From Thermoanaerobaculia bacterium (lineage in GTDB: Bacteria > Acidobacteriota > Thermoanaerobaculia > Multivoradales > Multivoraceae), in the NCBI GenBank assembly GCA_022824725.1, contig JAJDZH010000018.1, positions 321-64,320 on the forward strand: DNA of 64,000 nt. The letters run 5' to 3'. The stretch's first letter is position 1; each line of letters opens with the position of its first letter. Made by a program: the position numbers and the translations under genes. Shown in pieces: positions 44,141 to 60,606 of the stretch. Below the pieces are notes generated by a model. The model was not told the DNA's origin, ran no database searches, and saw only the letters and a list, made by a program, of their open reading frames with translations.

Positions 44141-44198
44141 CTGGGTGCGCCGGCGCCCCCGCCGGCTTCCGGATCTGCCGCGCTAGCGACTCTAACCG
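44141..44198. repeat. REP/MITE-like element (short form) abutting the dxr stop
   Basis: AACTGGGTGCGCCGGCGCCCCCGCCGGCTTCCGGATCTGCCGCGCTAG. Confidence 0.7.
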
Positions 44199-45389
44199 CC
44201 AACCTGCACGAGGACTTCCCGGGCACGGCGGCGACCCCAGGAATCCCACTCCAGGGCCTCGTCGATCGTCGCCGGCTCCGCGCCGCCGGCCTCGCGGCCG
44301 TGACGGTCGAGTACTTCCGCCGCCGCCGGCACGATGGCGGCGAAGGACGCCGTGCCGCCCAGGAACGCCGCGACCGCCGTTTCGTTCGCCGCGTTGAGCG
44401 CCGCGGGCGCGCCGTTCCCCCGGATGAGCGCTTCGCGGGCCAGGGACGGCGCCGGGAACACCTCCGGGTCAACGCTTCGGAACCTGAGTTCGGAAGCCGC
44501 CTCGAGCAGCTCGCTCAGTCCGTTCGCGGCGCCGTCGTCGGGGAGCGGCCAGCGTTCGGGATGGGACAGGGCGTAACGGATGGGGTACTCCATGTCGTTG
44601 GCCGAGATCTGGGCGATCGAGTTGCCGTCCCGGAACTCGACGATCGAGTGGACCAGCGACTGCGGGTGGATCAGGATGTCGATCCGGGATCCCGGCACGT
44701 CGAACAGGTAGCTGGCCTCGATGAGTTCCAGTCCCTTGTTCATCAGCGTCGCGGAGTCGACGCTGATCTTGGCCCCCATGTTCCAGGTCGGATGGGCCGT
44801 CGCCTCGGCCGGAGTCACCGTGTCGAGAGTGGCCGGGTCGCGGTCCAGGAACGGGCCGCCCGAGGCGGTCAGCACGAGGCGTCTGACCTCCCGGCGCCGT
44901 CCAGCGCGCAGGGCCTGGTGGATCGCGGCGTGTTCACTGTCGACCGGCAGGATCTTCGCGCCCGAGGCTGCCGCCAGCCGGCGCAGGAGTGGGCCCGCGG
45001 CGACCATCGCCTCCTTGTTCGCGAGCGCCAGGTCGGCGCCGGCGGCCAGGGCCGCCGCGGCGGGCCTCAAGCCGGCCGAGCCGACGATCGCCGTCAGCAC
45101 CAGGTCGAGGTGGCGGTCCCCGACCGCGTCGATCAGGGCCGCTTCGCCCCAGCCGACACCCGTGCCGGGCGGCAGGTCGGCGCGCAGTCGCCCCGCCGCT
45201 GCTTCCGTTTCGACGACGATCCGCCGGGGCCGGAACTCGCGCGCCAGCTCGGCGAGCCGCGCGGGCTTCGTGCCCCTCGCCGCCAGCACGCACACCTGGA
45301 GCCTGTCCGGATGCCGGCGGGCCACGGCGAGGGCCGCCTCACCGACCGAGCCGGTGGCGCCGAGTACGGCCAGCTTTCGCGCGCTCACG
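44192..45389 (-). CDS. dxr: 1-deoxy-D-xylulose 5-phosphate reductoisomerase
   Basis: KLAVLGATGSVGE NADPH site and LANKEAMV, SEHAAIHQ motifs; GTG start. Confidence 0.85.
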
Positions 45390-46243
45390 GCAGGAGCGAC
45401 GGCGTCGCACCGGCCTGGATGGCGACGTAGAACGCCGGCGTCGCCAGCAGAACGCTGTCGAGACGGTCGAGCAGCCCGCCATGGCCGGGCAGAAGGCCCC
45501 CCGTGTCCTTGACCTGCACGGCTCGCTTGAGCATCGACTCGACCAGGTCTCCGGCCTGCCCCGCGCCGCCGCAGAGCAGCGCCACGACGGGGACGTCCGG
45601 GCCGAGCGCTTCGGGACCGCGCCAGAGCAGGACGACCGCGACCCCGGCGGCGCAACTGGCGGCCAGGCCGCTCACCGCGCCCGCGATCGTCTTCTTCGGG
45701 CTGAGCACCGGCGCCAGCGGCCGGCGTCCGAGCAGGCGGCCGCCGTAGTAGGCGCCGATGTCGCCCAGGGAGACGACGACCAGGACCCAGAGCAGGAGCA
45801 CCGGTTCGACGACGTGGAGTTTGATGGCGGCGACCAGGAACAGCCCGAGCCAGAGGGCGCCGAAGGCGAACAGAGCCGAGGCAAGAAGCCGATCGCGGAT
45901 GTCGGCGTGGCTGGCGAGTCCGACCGCGGCGGTCAGGGCGAGGATGGCGGCCGCGGCGGCGAACCAGGTGCCGGCGCCGCTCAGGCCAGCCGGCAGCGGC
46001 ACGTCGATCAGCTCGTTCGCGGTCGTGTCGGCCAGGGCCAGCACGCCGACCGCGAGCCATAGCGCCCAGCTCACGGTGCGCGATACGACGATCCTCCGCA
46101 CCAGGGTGCCGTACTCGGCCGCGGCCACGAGAATCACGAGCGTGGCCGCCACTCCGAACAGAACGGGGTCGAGGTAGAGGACCAGGGCGGCCGTCAGCGC
46201 CGCGGTCACGACGCCCGTGACAACGCGTTTCATTTGCGGGAAT
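45385..46243 (-). CDS. cdsA: phosphatidate cytidylyltransferase
   Basis: Multi-TM protein; the C-terminal PLAPVLSPKKTIAG...HGGLLDRLDS motif is diagnostic. Confidence 0.8.
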
Positions 46244-46988
46244 CGTATTCCACGCTGTCCAGGCACAGGCCGCGGGCAGGGGCGTTCGGTCCGGCGGCGC
46301 TGCGGGCGCCACCCTTGAGCAGCGCCGCCAGATCGGCCAGCGTCCGGCGGCCGCGGCCCACCTCCAGCATCGTGCCCACCAGGGCGCGGACCATGCCGCG
46401 AAGGAATCCGTCGCCGGCGACCCGGAACCGGATCTCGTCCCCCTGTTCGGCCCATCCGGCTTCGCGAATCGTCCGCAGCGGACTCCCGTGGCTGCCGCCC
46501 GCCTTGGCGAAGGCCGAGAAGTCGTGCCGGCCCGTGATCAGGGCGGCGGCGGTCTTCATCGACTCGAGATCGAGTTCTCGCGGCGCCGGGACGACGAAGG
46601 GCGCCCGGAACGGGTCGATCACCGGCGCGGTGCAGAGTCGATAGATGTAGACCTTGAGCGAGGCGCTCTTGCGGGCGTGAAACGAGTCGTCGGCGGCGTC
46701 GGCGGCGAGCACCCGGATCGCCGCCGGGAGGTGGTGGTTCACGCCCTGGACGAGCGCCCGGCGGGTTTCGCCGGACGGCACGTTCCCGGCGGGAAGGTCG
46801 AGGTGCGCCGTCTGGCCGGCGGCGTGGACGCCGGCGTCGGTGCGGCCGGCCCCATGGACGGTGGCGTTCCGGCCGGTAACCGCCGCCACTGCCTCCTCCA
46901 CCAACTGCTGGATCGCCAGGGCGTTGTCCTGGCGTTGCCAGCCGGCATGGTCCGACCCGTCGTAGGCGATCAGCAGGCGGTACCTCAT
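46230..46988 (-). CDS. truA: tRNA pseudouridine(38-40) synthase
   Basis: MRYRLLIAYDGSDHAGWQRQ...GAGRTDAGVHA catalytic-Asp region. Confidence 0.8.
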   Translation of the reverse strand: MRYRLLIAYDGSDHAGWQRQDNALAIQQLVEEAVAAVTGRNATVHGAGRTDAGVHAAGQTAHLDLPAGNVPSGETRRALVQGVNHHLPAAIRVLAADAADDSFHARKSASLKVYIYRLCTAPVIDPFRAPFVVPAPRELDLESMKTAAALITGRHDFSAFAKAGGSHGSPLRTIREAGWAEQGDEIRFRVAGDGFLRGMVRALVGTMLEVGRGRRTLADLAALLKGGARSAAGPNAPARGLCLDSVEYDSRK

Positions 46989-59063: not shown

Positions 59064-59579
59064 TTGCAGATCGGTTTCCGCGTCTCGCGGTTCGCGCCCG
59101 CTTGCGTTGCTTCCCTTGTGTTCGCAGCCGGCTGGGCCTGCGGGGTCCCTTCGGACCCGCCCGTCCTCGACGAGAACGACCTGGAAACCGTGGCGGTGGG
59201 GCAGCCGGCGGACTCCATTCTCAGGCCGGAGGAGGACGAACAGGAGCAGCGGGCGCCGGAAGTGGCGGTGGGCGGCCGCATTCCCGGCGCCTTCCCGGAC
59301 GGCTTCCCCGTTCCGGACGCTTCCACCGTGGTCGACTTCGGCGACGTGGCGACGGAAGAAGGCGAGCCCGTCACGGCGGAGTACGTCGGGCTTCTCCTGC
59401 CGTTGGGCGCTCCTGCTGCGCGGGAGTGGTTGCTGCGCGAGGCGCAGGCCGCGGGCTGGCGGGCGACGCTCGGAGAGTCGATGACCTTCCGCAGGGGCGA
59501 CGAGTGGGTCGAGGTTGCGATCGAACCGGGCGCGACGCCGGGCAACTCGGCGGCGCGGTTCGAGTACGCGAAGCCGTAA
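59064..59579 (+). CDS. secreted hypothetical protein (possible lipoprotein)
   Basis: TTG start; signal peptide ending AAGWAC; acidic Pro-rich body; no recognisable family. Confidence 0.4.
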   Translation: MQIGFRVSRFAPACVASLVFAAGWACGVPSDPPVLDENDLETVAVGQPADSILRPEEDEQEQRAPEVAVGGRIPGAFPDGFPVPDASTVVDFGDVATEEGEPVTAEYVGLLLPLGAPAAREWLLREAQAAGWRATLGESMTFRRGDEWVEVAIEPGATPGNSAARFEYAKP

Positions 59580-59660
59580 GGAGCCGGCCTTGCGGCCGGC
59601 GCGGTTTCCTGGCCGCCTGCGGCGGCAGCCGGCGAGGGCGCCGGCGCACCCAGTGTGCGG
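59580..59660. repeat. REP/MITE-like element (type 2, inverted orientation)
   Basis: Reverse complement of the right half of 58420-58500: GAGCCGGCCTTGCGGCCGGCGCGGTTTCCTGGCCGCCTGCGGCGGCAGCCGGCGAGGGCGCCGGCGCACCCAGTG. Confidence 0.75.
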
Positions 59661-59742
59661 AGGGCTCTCCTCTCACTGCTAGGATGCGGCTCCTCTCCGA
59701 CCGGTTGGTCGGTCGGTTCGAATAGACAGGCGGAAGCAACGA

Positions 59743-60606
59743 ATGACGGGTCCGCTGACCCTTAGGCGCGCCGAGAAGTACGGATTCTGCGCCGGTGTGC
59801 GGATCGCCGATCGCACGGTGCGGCAACTTGCCGCGGGCGGACGGCGGGGGCGGATCCTGGGTCAACTGGTCCACAACGAACGGGTTGTCTCCGATCTCGT
59901 GCAGCTCGGCTTCGCCACGGCGGACGCGCTCGACGAGGTCGAGAACGGGACGATCGTCTTCTCGGCGCACGGCGTGCCGCCTTCGTTTCACCGGCGGGCG
60001 CTGGAACGGGGCCTCCTGGTCGTCGACACGACGTGCCCCTTCGTCTACGACGTCCACGAAGAGGCCCGGCAGGCGCTCGAGGCGGGCCATCACCTCGTGT
60101 TCATCGGCGACGCGCGGCACCGCGAGGTGATCGGCTACACCCGGGATCTCGATCCCGAGGCGTATGACGTCGTGCTGACCGTGGCCGACGTCGCCCGGAT
60201 CGACTTCGAGCGCCACCCGAAGGTCAAGATCTTCTACCAGACCACGCTGAACAGCGAGGAGTACGAGCAGGTGGCGCGGACGATCGAGGCGCGGGCGGCG
60301 GAGGCCGAGCGAGCGGACACCATCTGCTACGCGACGAAGGAGAACCAGGACGCGGCGCGCGCTCTGGCGGCCGACCCGGACATCGACTGCGTCGTCGTCG
60401 TCGGCGGCCGGCACAGCGCGAACACACGCCACCTGTGGGAGATCTGCCGGGAGATCGAGCCCCGAAGCCACCTCGTCCACGACTCGGGCGACCTGCGGAG
60501 AACCTGGTTCGAGGAGTGCCGCACCGTCGGCGTTACCGCCGGCGCCTCCACTCCGGACGCGATGATCGAGGAAGTCGAGGCGGCGATCCTGGAGGCGGCG
60601 CCCTGA
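59743..60606 (+). CDS. ispH: 4-hydroxy-3-methylbut-2-enyl diphosphate reductase
   Basis: GFCAGVRIA, VHNERV and TTCPFV motifs carry the three Cys ligands of the Fe-S cluster. Confidence 0.85.
   Translation: MTGPLTLRRAEKYGFCAGVRIADRTVRQLAAGGRRGRILGQLVHNERVVSDLVQLGFATADALDEVENGTIVFSAHGVPPSFHRRALERGLLVVDTTCPFVYDVHEEARQALEAGHHLVFIGDARHREVIGYTRDLDPEAYDVVLTVADVARIDFERHPKVKIFYQTTLNSEEYEQVARTIEARAAEAERADTICYATKENQDAARALAADPDIDCVVVVGGRHSANTRHLWEICREIEPRSHLVHDSGDLRRTWFEECRTVGVTAGASTPDAMIEEVEAAILEAAP

What the first reader, a model, noticed from the sequence alone, without database searches (positions are those of the whole stretch)
44192..60606. MEP-pathway genes dxr and ispH in the same window as the mevalonate module: dual isoprenoid precursor routes
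dxr (44192-45389, in the classic rseP-dxr-cdsA arrangement) and ispH (59743-60606) are both full-length with intact motifs. So the organism appears to encode both the MEP pathway and an alternative mevalonate pathway. Dual pathways are rare in bacteria (for example some actinomycetes, where the MVA route feeds specialised terpenoid metabolism). The MVA module here may be a horizontally acquired or condition-specific route.
Basis: partly seen in the sequence, partly recalled or inferred. Interest (0 to 1): 0.6.

Follow-up and report, generated by a model that had tools for sequence, protein, structure and literature searches.

The report
Both isoprenoid precursor pathways together
An uncultured Acidobacteriota (Thermoanaerobaculia) bacterium carries, on one stretch of chromosome, intact genes of the usual bacterial MEP route and an operon for the archaeal-style mevalonate route; this redundancy is rare but known, and here it looks old and inherited rather than recently acquired.

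Summary
At the window's left edge lies the 3' half of an operon: idi2 - class-I-like hmgR - mevalonate kinase - MVD-family decarboxylase - isopentenyl phosphate kinase - DtxR-family regulator. The decarboxylase has the phosphomevalonate-decarboxylase signature (no Lys21, His196). No phosphomevalonate kinase is in the operon. This is the haloarchaea/Chloroflexota-type route.

The host is a Thermoanaerobaculia MAG lineage. Composition, dN/dS (0.06-0.31) and co-divergence with dxr argue against recent transfer. A closed relative chromosome has the same layout.

Dual pathways are a known kind (about 2% of species). New here is the combination (MEP plus PMD/IPK route, outside Chloroflexota) and its context. 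In relatives from Thermoanaerobaculia, other Acidobacteriota, Gemmatimonadota and an Isosphaeraceae MAG, the cassette lies between a prenyl-diphosphate synthase and a squalene-synthase-like gene. In 11 loci it lies inside hopanoid clusters.

Not shown for this genome: dxs, ispD/E/F/G and HMG-CoA synthase.

The parts
2..526 (+). 3' part (174 codons) of the mevalonate kinase gene; the gene starts upstream of the window
   Evidence: TIGR00549 mevalonate kinase matches profile positions 173-269. The identical sequence on ENA scaffold_696 (L001) gives the full 369-aa GHMP kinase, TIGR00549 142 bits (below the 163 cut-off), E 2e-41.
538..1602 (+). MVD-family decarboxylase, predicted phosphomevalonate decarboxylase (PMD/MPD)
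   Evidence: Pfam MVD-like_N plus MDD_C; TIGR01240 192.5 bits against a cut-off of 171.35. Best PDB match is the Anaerolinea thermophila PMD 6N0X, E 8e-56, against 2e-44 or weaker for true MDDs. Position 21 is Ala, not Lys; position 196 is His, not Met. The catalytic residues S107, S139, S141, R144, K188, S192 and D283 are kept (numbering verified against 3QT5).
1599..2477 (+). isopentenyl phosphate kinase (IPK). The TTG start at 1599 overlaps the decarboxylase stop; an alternative start lies at 1638.
   Evidence: Pfam AA_kinase; NF040647 IPPK_Arch 131.3 bits against a cut-off of 120. PDB IPKs match at E 1.5e-29, with the KLGGS, GSFGH (IPK-specific His) and DVTGG motifs aligned.
2464..3156 (+). 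DtxR-family metalloregulator (SloR/MntR-like N-terminal 'EDYLKCIF' motif, FeoA/SH3-like C-terminus). It overlaps the ipk stop by 14 nt, so it is the last gene of the operon.
   Evidence: Pfam Fe_dep_repress, Fe_dep_repr_C and FeoA. It is adjacent in all close relatives and recurs downstream of the cassette in 22 of 80 loci. The SloR-like motif is recognised from memory and was not tested.
44192..45388 (-). dxr (1-deoxy-D-xylulose-5-phosphate reductoisomerase), 398 aa
   Evidence: Orthologues at 97%, 85-90% and 73-76% identity in the same clade.
45385..46233 (-). cdsA (CDP-diglyceride synthase), translationally coupled to truA upstream and dxr downstream
   Evidence: Pfam CTP_transf_1. The orthologue in L091 is 290 aa.
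42822..44132 (-). rseP (M50 site-2 protease with PDZ domains), downstream of dxr
   Evidence: Pfam Peptidase_M50 plus PDZ. The orthologue in L091 is 436 aa. The longer ORF, reaching 44249, runs through a REP-like repeat at 44140-44182.
59743..60606 (+). ispH/lytB (HMBPP reductase), 287 aa
   Evidence: The identical protein is on ENA scaffold_3923 and on a Logan contig from the same sample.

Best explanation
The window comes from a Thermoanaerobaculia (Acidobacteriota) bacterium of the 'Candidatus Multivorans'-like clade.

Proposed mechanism. The organism has inherited two routes to IPP/DMAPP and keeps both under purifying selection.
(1) The MEP pathway. Here it is seen as dxr, embedded in the conserved truA-cdsA-dxr-rseP housekeeping run, and ispH. 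It presumably supplies essential polyprenyl carriers and quinones.
(2) A haloarchaea/Chloroflexota-type mevalonate pathway, encoded by one operon: type-2 IPP isomerase, HMG-CoA reductase (nearest the NADPH class-I model), mevalonate kinase, phosphomevalonate decarboxylase, isopentenyl phosphate kinase and a DtxR-family regulator. Mevalonate-5-phosphate would be decarboxylated to isopentenyl phosphate, which IPK then phosphorylates to IPP. No phosphomevalonate kinase is needed.

Shown: gene identities, the active-site signatures, operon structure, conservation and vertical co-divergence.

Inferred:
- The remaining MEP genes and an HMG-CoA source exist elsewhere in the genome.
- The decarboxylase really prefers the monophosphate.
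- The two routes are functionally partitioned. In relatives the cassette is wired to squalene/hopanoid synthesis. In this clade that wiring is gone and a metal-responsive regulator is its only dedicated partner.
For: Gene identity and intact sites.

Upstream half of the operon: idi2 scores 388 bits on TIGR02151 against a cut-off of 281. hmgR scores 426 bits on TIGR00533. The full mevalonate kinase comes from the identical ENA contig.

PMD signature: Lys21 is absent and His196 is present in all 70 family members that could be aligned (68 could be scored at position 21), while the catalytic residues are invariant. This matches the two substitutions, N->K and H->M, that separate the engineered 6N0Z from wild-type AthPMD 6N0X. 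It also matches the 'lacks DMD Lys, keeps PMD His' rule in PMC11052028.

Operon composition: IPK directly follows the decarboxylase in 68 of 80 loci. There is no third GHMP kinase in any operon.

Same replicon: dxr and the MVA operon are 43 kb apart in the window. In the closed chromosome OX638294.1 the fetched stretches around them lie about 45 kb apart.

An order-level relative has ispG about 9 kb from the operon.

No compositional anomaly. dN/dS is 0.06-0.31. Divergence from the closed-chromosome relative is like that of neighbouring core genes.
Against: - Only 2 of 7 MEP genes are seen in this genome.
- Surveys note that MVA-using species often retain one or two MEP genes (PMC10663253), and that Listeria keeps a truncated MEP pathway (PMC13001223).
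- No HMG-CoA synthase or thiolase lies next to the operon in this clade. The HMGS search did not hit a contig of this clade.
- Mevalonate kinase and HMGR score just below their NCBIfam cut-offs.
- The decarboxylase keeps Arg193 as in true MDDs; elsewhere in the family this position is L, I, V, T or S.
- Substrate preference is inferred from sequence only.
- No expression or lipid data exist.
Confidence: 0.62

Rival explanations
1. Mevalonate is the only working route, and dxr and ispH are leftovers of a truncated MEP pathway. They would be retained for another reason, for example production of a signalling intermediate as proposed for Listeria, or simple slow decay.
For: Five of the seven MEP genes were not seen for this genome. 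Surveys report that species with one complete pathway commonly hold a few genes of the other (PMC10663253; PMC13001223 on Listeria).
Against: Both the first committed enzyme and the last enzyme are intact at every catalytic position. Dxr diverges at the pace of its core neighbours: 75% identity against 63-85%. It is conserved throughout the clade. ispG is present 9 kb from the MVA operon in an order-level relative. A pathway truncated at MEcPP would not need ispH.
Confidence: 0.12
2. MEP is the only de novo route. In this clade the MVA operon has lost its upstream supply (no HMG-CoA synthase). It would act as a salvage or side entry, converting HMG-CoA from leucine or other catabolism, or scavenged mevalonate, into IPP.
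For: No HMGS or thiolase was found within 10 kb of the operon in the window's clade, and none was detected for the clade. This clade has also lost the prenyl synthase and squalene synthase flanks seen in relatives. Biotin carboxylase/BCCP genes and a carboxyltransferase gene are nearby.
Against: HMGS is commonly unlinked, and it is widespread in Thermoanaerobaculia and Acidobacteriota MAGs. The nearby carboxylase is closest to the methylmalonyl-CoA decarboxylase / acyl-CoA carboxyltransferase (mmdA-like) models and was not matched to a methylcrotonyl-CoA carboxylase model. Strong purifying selection on all five genes fits a regularly used pathway.
Confidence: 0.15
3. The pathway is the classical mevalonate pathway. 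The decarboxylase would be a true diphosphomevalonate decarboxylase, a phosphomevalonate kinase would be encoded elsewhere, and IPK would only recycle isopentenyl phosphate, as proposed in plants.
For: The protein passes the TIGR01240 'diphosphomevalonate decarboxylase' cut-off. It retains Ser192-Arg193 as in the S. epidermidis MDD. The Chloroflexota enzymes are annotated the same way.
Against: The Lys21 of DMDs is missing and the PMD-type His196 is present in every aligned family member (rule in PMC11052028; 6N0X against 6N0Z). The closest solved relative is a characterised PMD. IPK is operon-linked in 68 of 80 loci, and PMK is never in the operon.
Confidence: 0.08
4. The MVA module is a recent horizontal acquisition, or a chimeric assembly joining two organisms.
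For: The same cassette occurs at 47-57% identity in several phyla. This implies transfers between phyla at some time in the past.
Against: Composition is indistinguishable from the rest of the window. The same layout occurs in independent assemblies, including a closed chromosome. Identities to relatives track those of dxr and the neighbouring genes. A lineage-specific REP-like repeat occurs on both sides.
Confidence: 0.03

Closest known systems
Haloarchaea-type (MPD/PMD route) mevalonate pathway of Chloroflexota (Roseiflexus castenholzii, Anaerolinea thermophila) and Haloferax volcanii
   Same: Mevalonate kinase, a PMD-signature MVD homolog and IPK, with no PMK. The decarboxylase is closest to the solved A. 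thermophila PMD and shares its Lys-absent, His-present motif. A type-2 IPP isomerase is present, and the HMGR is nearest the NADPH (class I) model.
   Different: Dellas et al. (PMC3857490) state that bacteria of the class Chloroflexi encode no MEP/DXP homologs, and Hoshino & Gaucher (PMC6107057) describe the Chloroflexi MVA genes as not forming one cluster. Here the genes form one tight operon, the host is a BamD-encoding Acidobacteriota bacterium, and MEP genes coexist. Position 21 is Ala rather than Asn/Leu, and position 27 is Pro/Ala rather than Arg. The papers read (2018, 2024) list only Chloroflexota among bacteria for this route.
Actinomycete dual-pathway strains (Streptomyces MVA clusters attached to terpenoid gene clusters; Mycobacterium marinum)
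   Same: MEP is retained as the housekeeping route alongside a compact MVA operon. In relatives of this window, that operon is physically attached to a terpenoid (squalene/hopanoid) gene cluster, as described for Streptomyces in PMC13001223.
   Different: From general knowledge, not tested here: actinomycetes use the classical MK-PMK-MDD order with HMGS inside the cluster. Here the route is PMD-IPK and HMGS is unlinked. In the window's own clade the terpenoid flanks are absent.
Listeria monocytogenes / L. innocua (MVA plus a complete or truncated MEP pathway)
   Same: Genes of both pathways are present in one genome. There is a suggested link between MEP Fe-S enzymes and oxidative stress (PMC13001223).
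   Different: In Listeria, MVA is the main route and IspG/IspH are defective or absent. Here ispH is intact, and an ispG is present in an order-level relative.

Membership tests
MEP/DOXP pathway (complete) | Dxr present and catalytically intact | tested here: met
   TIGR00243 359.5 bits against a cut-off of 315.7. All metal, substrate and NADPH residues are kept.
MEP/DOXP pathway (complete) | IspH present with three cluster cysteines and catalytic His/Glu | tested here: met
   TIGR00216 244.9 bits against a cut-off of 187.85. C12/C96/C197, H41, H124 and E126 are kept.
MEP/DOXP pathway (complete) | IspG present | tested here: inconclusive
   Not in the window. Found about 9 kb from the MVA operon in the order-level relative OZ243123.1. 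The orthologue in this genome could not be identified; one candidate checked came from another lineage.
MEP/DOXP pathway (complete) | Dxs, IspD, IspE and IspF present | not testable with these tools
   tblastn with the E. coli proteins against the window and 83 related loci found none.
Haloarchaea/Chloroflexota-type mevalonate pathway | HMG-CoA reductase and mevalonate kinase | tested here: met
   Both are on the identical ENA contig directly upstream of the window: PF00368 with TIGR00533 426 bits (cut-off 441.8), and a GHMP kinase with TIGR00549 E 2e-41. The kinase's 3' end is at window 2..526. Both score slightly below their curated cut-offs.
Haloarchaea/Chloroflexota-type mevalonate pathway | Decarboxylase with PMD rather than DMD specificity | tested here: inconclusive
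   The sequence signature is met: no Lys21, His196 present, closest to the solved AthPMD (PMC11052028). Substrate preference itself needs an assay.
Haloarchaea/Chloroflexota-type mevalonate pathway | IPK with the IPK-specific histidine, linked to the decarboxylase | tested here: met
   NF040647 131.3 bits against a cut-off of 120. The GSFGH histidine is aligned to PDB IPKs. IPK overlaps the decarboxylase stop and is adjacent to it in 68 of 80 loci.
Haloarchaea/Chloroflexota-type mevalonate pathway | No phosphomevalonate kinase | tested here: inconclusive
   None in the operon, in the window or in any of 80 related loci. Absence from the whole genome was not testable.
Haloarchaea/Chloroflexota-type mevalonate pathway | HMG-CoA synthase (and thiolase) supplying HMG-CoA | tested here: inconclusive
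   Not near the operon in this clade. Present in other Acidobacteriota: in L035 it lies 3 kb downstream of the operon, with Myxococcus xanthus MvaS (5HWO) as the best PDB match. It is widespread in Thermoanaerobaculia MAGs.
Terpenoid-cluster-linked MVA operon (Streptomyces-like arrangement) | MVA operon physically adjacent to terpenoid biosynthetic genes | tested here: not met
   The window and its close relatives (L001, L004-L014) have no prenyl synthase, squalene synthase, SHC or Hpn homolog near the operon. The feature is met in 55 of 69 more distant loci, and 11 of those have SHC/HpnH.

The most novel reading that the evidence does not exclude
The idi2-hmgR-mk-pmd-ipk cassette is an ancient, self-contained supply module for triterpenoids (squalene/hopanoids). 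It has spread among Acidobacteriota, Gemmatimonadota and Planctomycetota, and in reduced form without the triterpenoid flanks among Rhodothermales, and it coexists with MEP there. Because it contains no Fe-S enzyme, it would let these bacteria make isoprenoids when IspG and IspH are compromised by oxygen or by iron limitation. On this reading, the recurrent DtxR-family regulator at its 3' end is the switch. In the window's clade only this conditional-bypass role would remain.
Probability: 0.25. Interest if true: 0.65.

Novelty: new member of a known kind. Interest (0 to 1): 0.45.

Why it matters
Bacteria that hold both routes to IPP are models for how redundant central pathways are partitioned, and they serve as templates for engineering high-flux terpenoid hosts.

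This case adds a lineage (Thermoanaerobaculia) and a combination (MEP plus the PMD/IPK variant) that the surveys read here do not list. Those surveys describe the PMD/IPK route in bacteria only for Chloroflexota.

In relatives, the cassette is physically coupled to squalene and hopanoid genes. That makes one idea directly testable: that the mevalonate route is dedicated to membrane triterpenoids while MEP serves housekeeping.

It also cautions annotators. These 'diphosphomevalonate decarboxylases' pass the curated cut-off for the wrong substrate.

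Tried and rejected
1. Genome-wide inventory. E. coli Dxs, IspD, IspE, IspF and IspG were run by tblastn against the window and 83 loci and gave only one IspG hit, in L061. I then tried to tie hits to MVA-bearing genomes by matching contig lengths. This worked only for Dxr (4,634,923 bp = OX638294.1) and for L061's own IspG.

2. I chased one IspG candidate on a 4.5-Mb contig, P0089. It proved to be a 62.7% GC organism without the lineage's REP repeat.

3. Recent HGT was rejected.

4. I looked for a PMK hidden in the gaps between hmgR and mk in L004, L007 and L010. 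L004 holds an unrelated insertion with lower GC3 (a methyltransferase-like and a GNAT-like ORF, judged by eye). L007 and L010 have no convincing gene.

5. I looked by eye for a DtxR/IdeR-type operator upstream of idi2 (no systematic scan). None was obvious; there is only a conserved leader with a 10-codon uORF.

6. The Rfam scan of the window and L001 found only four tRNAs.

7. Literature searches for mevalonate or IPK together with Thermoanaerobaculia, Acidobacteria, 'Ca. Multivorans' or Gemmatimonadota returned nothing relevant. Hoshino & Villanueva 2023 and Thomas et al. 2019 are not held, so prior description of this distribution cannot be excluded.

8. The leucine-to-HMG-CoA idea: the nearby carboxyltransferase matches mmdA-like (methylmalonyl-CoA decarboxylase / acyl-CoA carboxyltransferase) models and no methylcrotonyl-CoA carboxylase model appeared. 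It is kept only as a minor rival.

Full report
**Observation.** The window is about 70% G+C, so genes were called by third-position GC and checked against profile libraries.

- dxr is the minus-strand ORF 44192..45388.
- It carries the three Dxr Pfam domains and scores 359.5 bits on TIGR00243 against a cut-off of 315.7.
- It retains every residue checked against E. coli Dxr: the GxTGSxG loop, D150/E152/E231, S186, H209, W212, M214, N227 and K228.
- Its GTG start overlaps the cdsA stop, and cdsA overlaps truA. A 59-nt spacer containing a REP-like repeat separates dxr from rseP.
- ispH (59743..60606) scores 244.9 bits on TIGR00216 against 187.85. It keeps the three cluster cysteines and H41/H74/H124/E126/T167/N227/S269.

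**The mevalonate module.** It lies at the extreme left of the window, outside the finding's coordinates.

- It consists of a mevalonate kinase 3' fragment (2..526), an MVD-family decarboxylase (538..1602) and an amino-acid-kinase-fold IPK (1599..2477; NF040647 131 bits against a cut-off of 120). A DtxR-family regulator (2464..3156) overlaps the ipk stop.
- A contig from ENA sample ERZ23491266 encodes the identical decarboxylase and shows the missing upstream half: a type-2 IPP isomerase (TIGR02151 388 bits against 281), an HMG-CoA reductase nearest the NADPH (class I) model (426 bits, cut-off 441.8) and the full 369-aa mevalonate kinase.
- The operon is therefore idi2-hmgR-mk-decarboxylase-ipk-dtxR.

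**Which mevalonate variant.**

- The decarboxylase's best solved relative is the Anaerolinea thermophila phosphomevalonate decarboxylase 6N0X (E 8e-56). Genuine diphosphomevalonate decarboxylases score E 2e-44 or weaker.
- For numbering I used S. epidermidis MDD. I recalled its sequence from memory and then verified it as 100% identical to PDB 3QT5.
- I tabulated active-site positions in 70 family members from related loci. S107, S139, S141, R144, K188, S192 and D283 are invariant.
- Position 21 is never Lys where it could be scored (68 members). It is mostly Ala, and Asn in the Chloroflexota members and AthPMD.
- Position 196 is always His. It is Met in the MDD.
- These are the two positions that differ between wild-type 6N0X and the engineered 6N0Z (N->K, H->M). 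PMC11052028 states the same rule: PMD-type enzymes lack the DMD lysine and keep the PMD histidine. Dellas et al. (PMC3857490, Table 4) likewise list loss of Lys21 as MPD-like.
- IPK follows the decarboxylase in 68 of 80 related loci, and no operon contains a third GHMP kinase.
- I therefore read the module as the haloarchaea/Chloroflexota-type route. The caveats are that substrate preference is inferred and that Arg193 is MDD-like in this clade.

**Host and inheritance.**

- Scanning one genome per GTDB species with the decarboxylase returned 565 relatives. The best are Thermoanaerobaculia MAGs (96-97% identity), then 'Candidatus Multivorans' chromosomes (85-86%), then other Thermoanaerobaculia and Acidobacteriota, Gemmatimonadota, Rhodothermales (Longimonas, Salinivenus), an Isosphaeraceae MAG, some Gammaproteobacteria and Chloroflexota.
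- Dxr homologs show the same tiers: 97%, 85-90%, 73-76%, then 59% or less.
- One Dxr hit lies on a 4,634,923-bp contig, the length of OX638294.1, which also carries the MVA operon (L010). The look-up showed the same truA-cdsA-dxr-rseP-PASTA-rpe-bamD run. The stretch fetched around it lies about 45 kb from the stretch around the operon.
- Against that genome, Dxr is 75% identical while its neighbours are 63-85%. IDI2, HMGR, MVD and IPK are 91, 88, 80 and 79% identical.
- GC3 and codon usage of the five MVA genes lie within about 1.3 sd of 48 window genes.
- dN/dS against four relatives is 0.06-0.31, like the flanking genes (the 'PBP' rows there are an out-of-frame artefact of my coordinates).
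- Recent horizontal acquisition and assembly chimerism are therefore rejected. Ancient transfer between phyla remains likely, given the cassette's patchy distribution.

**Completeness.**

- The other MEP genes are not in the window or in the related loci. The exception is an IspG about 9 kb downstream of the MVA operon in the Multivoradales chromosome OZ243123.1.
- An HMG-CoA synthase lies 3 kb from the operon in one Acidobacteriota MAG, with Myxococcus xanthus MvaS as its best PDB match. Homologs are common in Thermoanaerobaculia MAGs. None could be tied to the window's clade.
- Two surveys warn that partial second pathways are common (PMC10663253; PMC13001223). This is why confidence in 'both functional' is about 0.6.

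**Context found along the way.**

- Clustering the ORFs of the 80 loci shows that outside the window's clade the cassette usually sits between two genes: a polyprenyl-diphosphate synthase upstream and a squalene-synthase-family gene downstream. One or both are present in 55 of 69 loci.
- In 11 loci from Thermoanaerobaculia, other Acidobacteriota and Gemmatimonadota it is preceded by squalene-hopene cyclase (TIGR01507 608 bits), HpnH (381 bits), HpnA (462 bits) and an HpnG-like gene. HpnN (909 bits) lies downstream in the Gemmatimonadota loci.
- So in relatives the mevalonate operon is part of a hopanoid/squalene supercluster, much as Streptomyces MVA operons sit beside terpenoid clusters.
- The window's clade has lost or relocated these flanks but keeps the DtxR-family regulator, which recurs in 22 of 80 loci.
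- The mevalonate route has no Fe-S enzyme, whereas IspG and IspH are oxygen-sensitive Fe-S proteins (PMC13001223). A metal- or redox-conditional division of labour is therefore an attractive hypothesis, but it is untested.

**Comparison with what is known, and verdict.**

- Dual MEP+MVA bacteria are a known kind: 1.8-2.4% of surveyed species, including Streptomyces, Mycobacterium marinum and Listeria. The PMD/IPK route is also known, from haloarchaea and Chloroflexota.
- The papers I could read still describe Chloroflexota as the only bacterial home of that route (PMC6107057, PMC11052028). No paper linking it to Acidobacteriota was found. Two key reviews were not available, so priority cannot be judged.
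- I rate the finding a new member of a known kind.
- Observation: confirmed.
- Interpretation: partly supported. Dual gene sets and the alternative MVA route are supported, recent HGT is not, and completeness is unproven.
- Interest is moderate, 0.45. It would be higher if the triterpenoid-dedicated or Fe-S-free-bypass reading were shown.

Noticed in passing
L015, L016, L018, L019, L027, L043, L061, L062, L065, L066, L067 (about 1-15 kb in each); for example L061:2-12820 and L043:1614-15394: In relatives the MVA cassette is embedded in a hopanoid/squalene supercluster. The order is squalene-hopene cyclase - HpnH - HpnA - HpnG-like - polyprenyl-PP synthase - idi2-hmgR-mk-pmd-ipk - squalene-synthase-like, plus HpnN in Gemmatimonadota. 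A prenyl-synthase and/or SQS-like flank is present in 55 of 69 non-close loci. Both are absent from the window's own clade.
   Followed up: partly
L019, L027, L042, L043, L065 (Gemmatimonadota); L031, L055, L074 (Rhodothermales); L078 (Isosphaeraceae); L076, L077, L081 (Gammaproteobacteria MAGs): A PMD-signature decarboxylase with an adjacent IPK, and mostly the whole five-gene cassette, occurs in several phyla besides Chloroflexota. The papers read here name only Chloroflexota among bacteria for this route.
   Followed up: partly
window 2464-3156 (+); also downstream of the cassette in L015, L018, L022, L024, L031, L049, L052, L060, L066-L069: A DtxR-family (SloR/MntR-like) metalloregulator overlaps the ipk stop by 14 nt. 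It recurs on the same strand behind the cassette in 22 of 80 loci. No metal transporter was noticed next to it in the window. The reason for the link to mevalonate/squalene genes is unexplained.
   Followed up: partly
window 5267-5347, 9738-9791, 23225-23305, 37505-37585, 40003-40125, 44140-44182, 47685-47871, 48549-48647, 50758-50936, 58306-58499, 59576-59665: A dispersed, mostly intergenic REP-like repeat with core CACTGGGTGCGCCGGCGCCC(C/T)CGCCGGC. It has about 15 copies on both strands, some as inverted pairs; copies flank the region just upstream of ispH and one sits between dxr and rseP. It inflates several ORF calls (rseP, cdsA and Rrf2 N-termini). It is found only in the closest relatives.
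   Followed up: partly
L001:217-249 (just upstream of the window); same position in L004-L014: A conserved 10-codon upstream ORF (M-x4-[I/F/N]-G-A-V-A). Its TGA stop overlaps the GTG start of idi2, and a conserved leader (CGGTACAGT...GCATG) precedes it. This may be translational coupling or a leader-peptide control of the MVA operon.
   Followed up: no
window 8837-9721 (+), 46985-48694 (-), about 48684-50195 (+): Genes for enzymes that use polyprenyl-phosphate carriers. One is a decaprenyl-phosphate phosphoribosyltransferase homolog (NF008977 277 bits against a cut-off of 234). Another is an MptA/B-family GT-C mannosyltransferase-like membrane protein, encoded at the head of the truA-cdsA-dxr run. 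A divergently oriented GT2 completes the set. This is an actinobacteria-like cell-envelope toolkit in an acidobacterium.
   Followed up: no
window 57020-59579 (+): A Nudix hydrolase, a HAD phosphatase, an Rrf2-family (Fe-S-sensing type) regulator and a 171-aa protein with no Pfam match lie directly upstream of ispH. A possible regulatory or IP/IPP-recycling link was not examined.
   Followed up: no
window 55206-55617 (-): A cluster of four tRNA genes: Arg(CCG), His(GTG), Arg(TCT) and Pro(TGG).
   Followed up: yes
L004:7737-8850; L010:6713-8483; L007:7472-8416: In some relatives the hmgR-mk junction is split by 1-1.7 kb. In L004 the insert has lower GC3 and carries a methyltransferase-like and a GNAT-like ORF, judged by eye. 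In the long-read assemblies no clear gene is present. No PMK is present in any of these gaps.
   Followed up: partly
L090:7686-9551: A 621-aa UbiD-family decarboxylase lies between the MVA/SQS cluster and ispG in the Multivoradales chromosome OZ243123.1. UbiD-family enzymes include the anhydromevalonate-phosphate decarboxylase of the archaeal MVA variant. Any relevance here is unknown.
   Followed up: no
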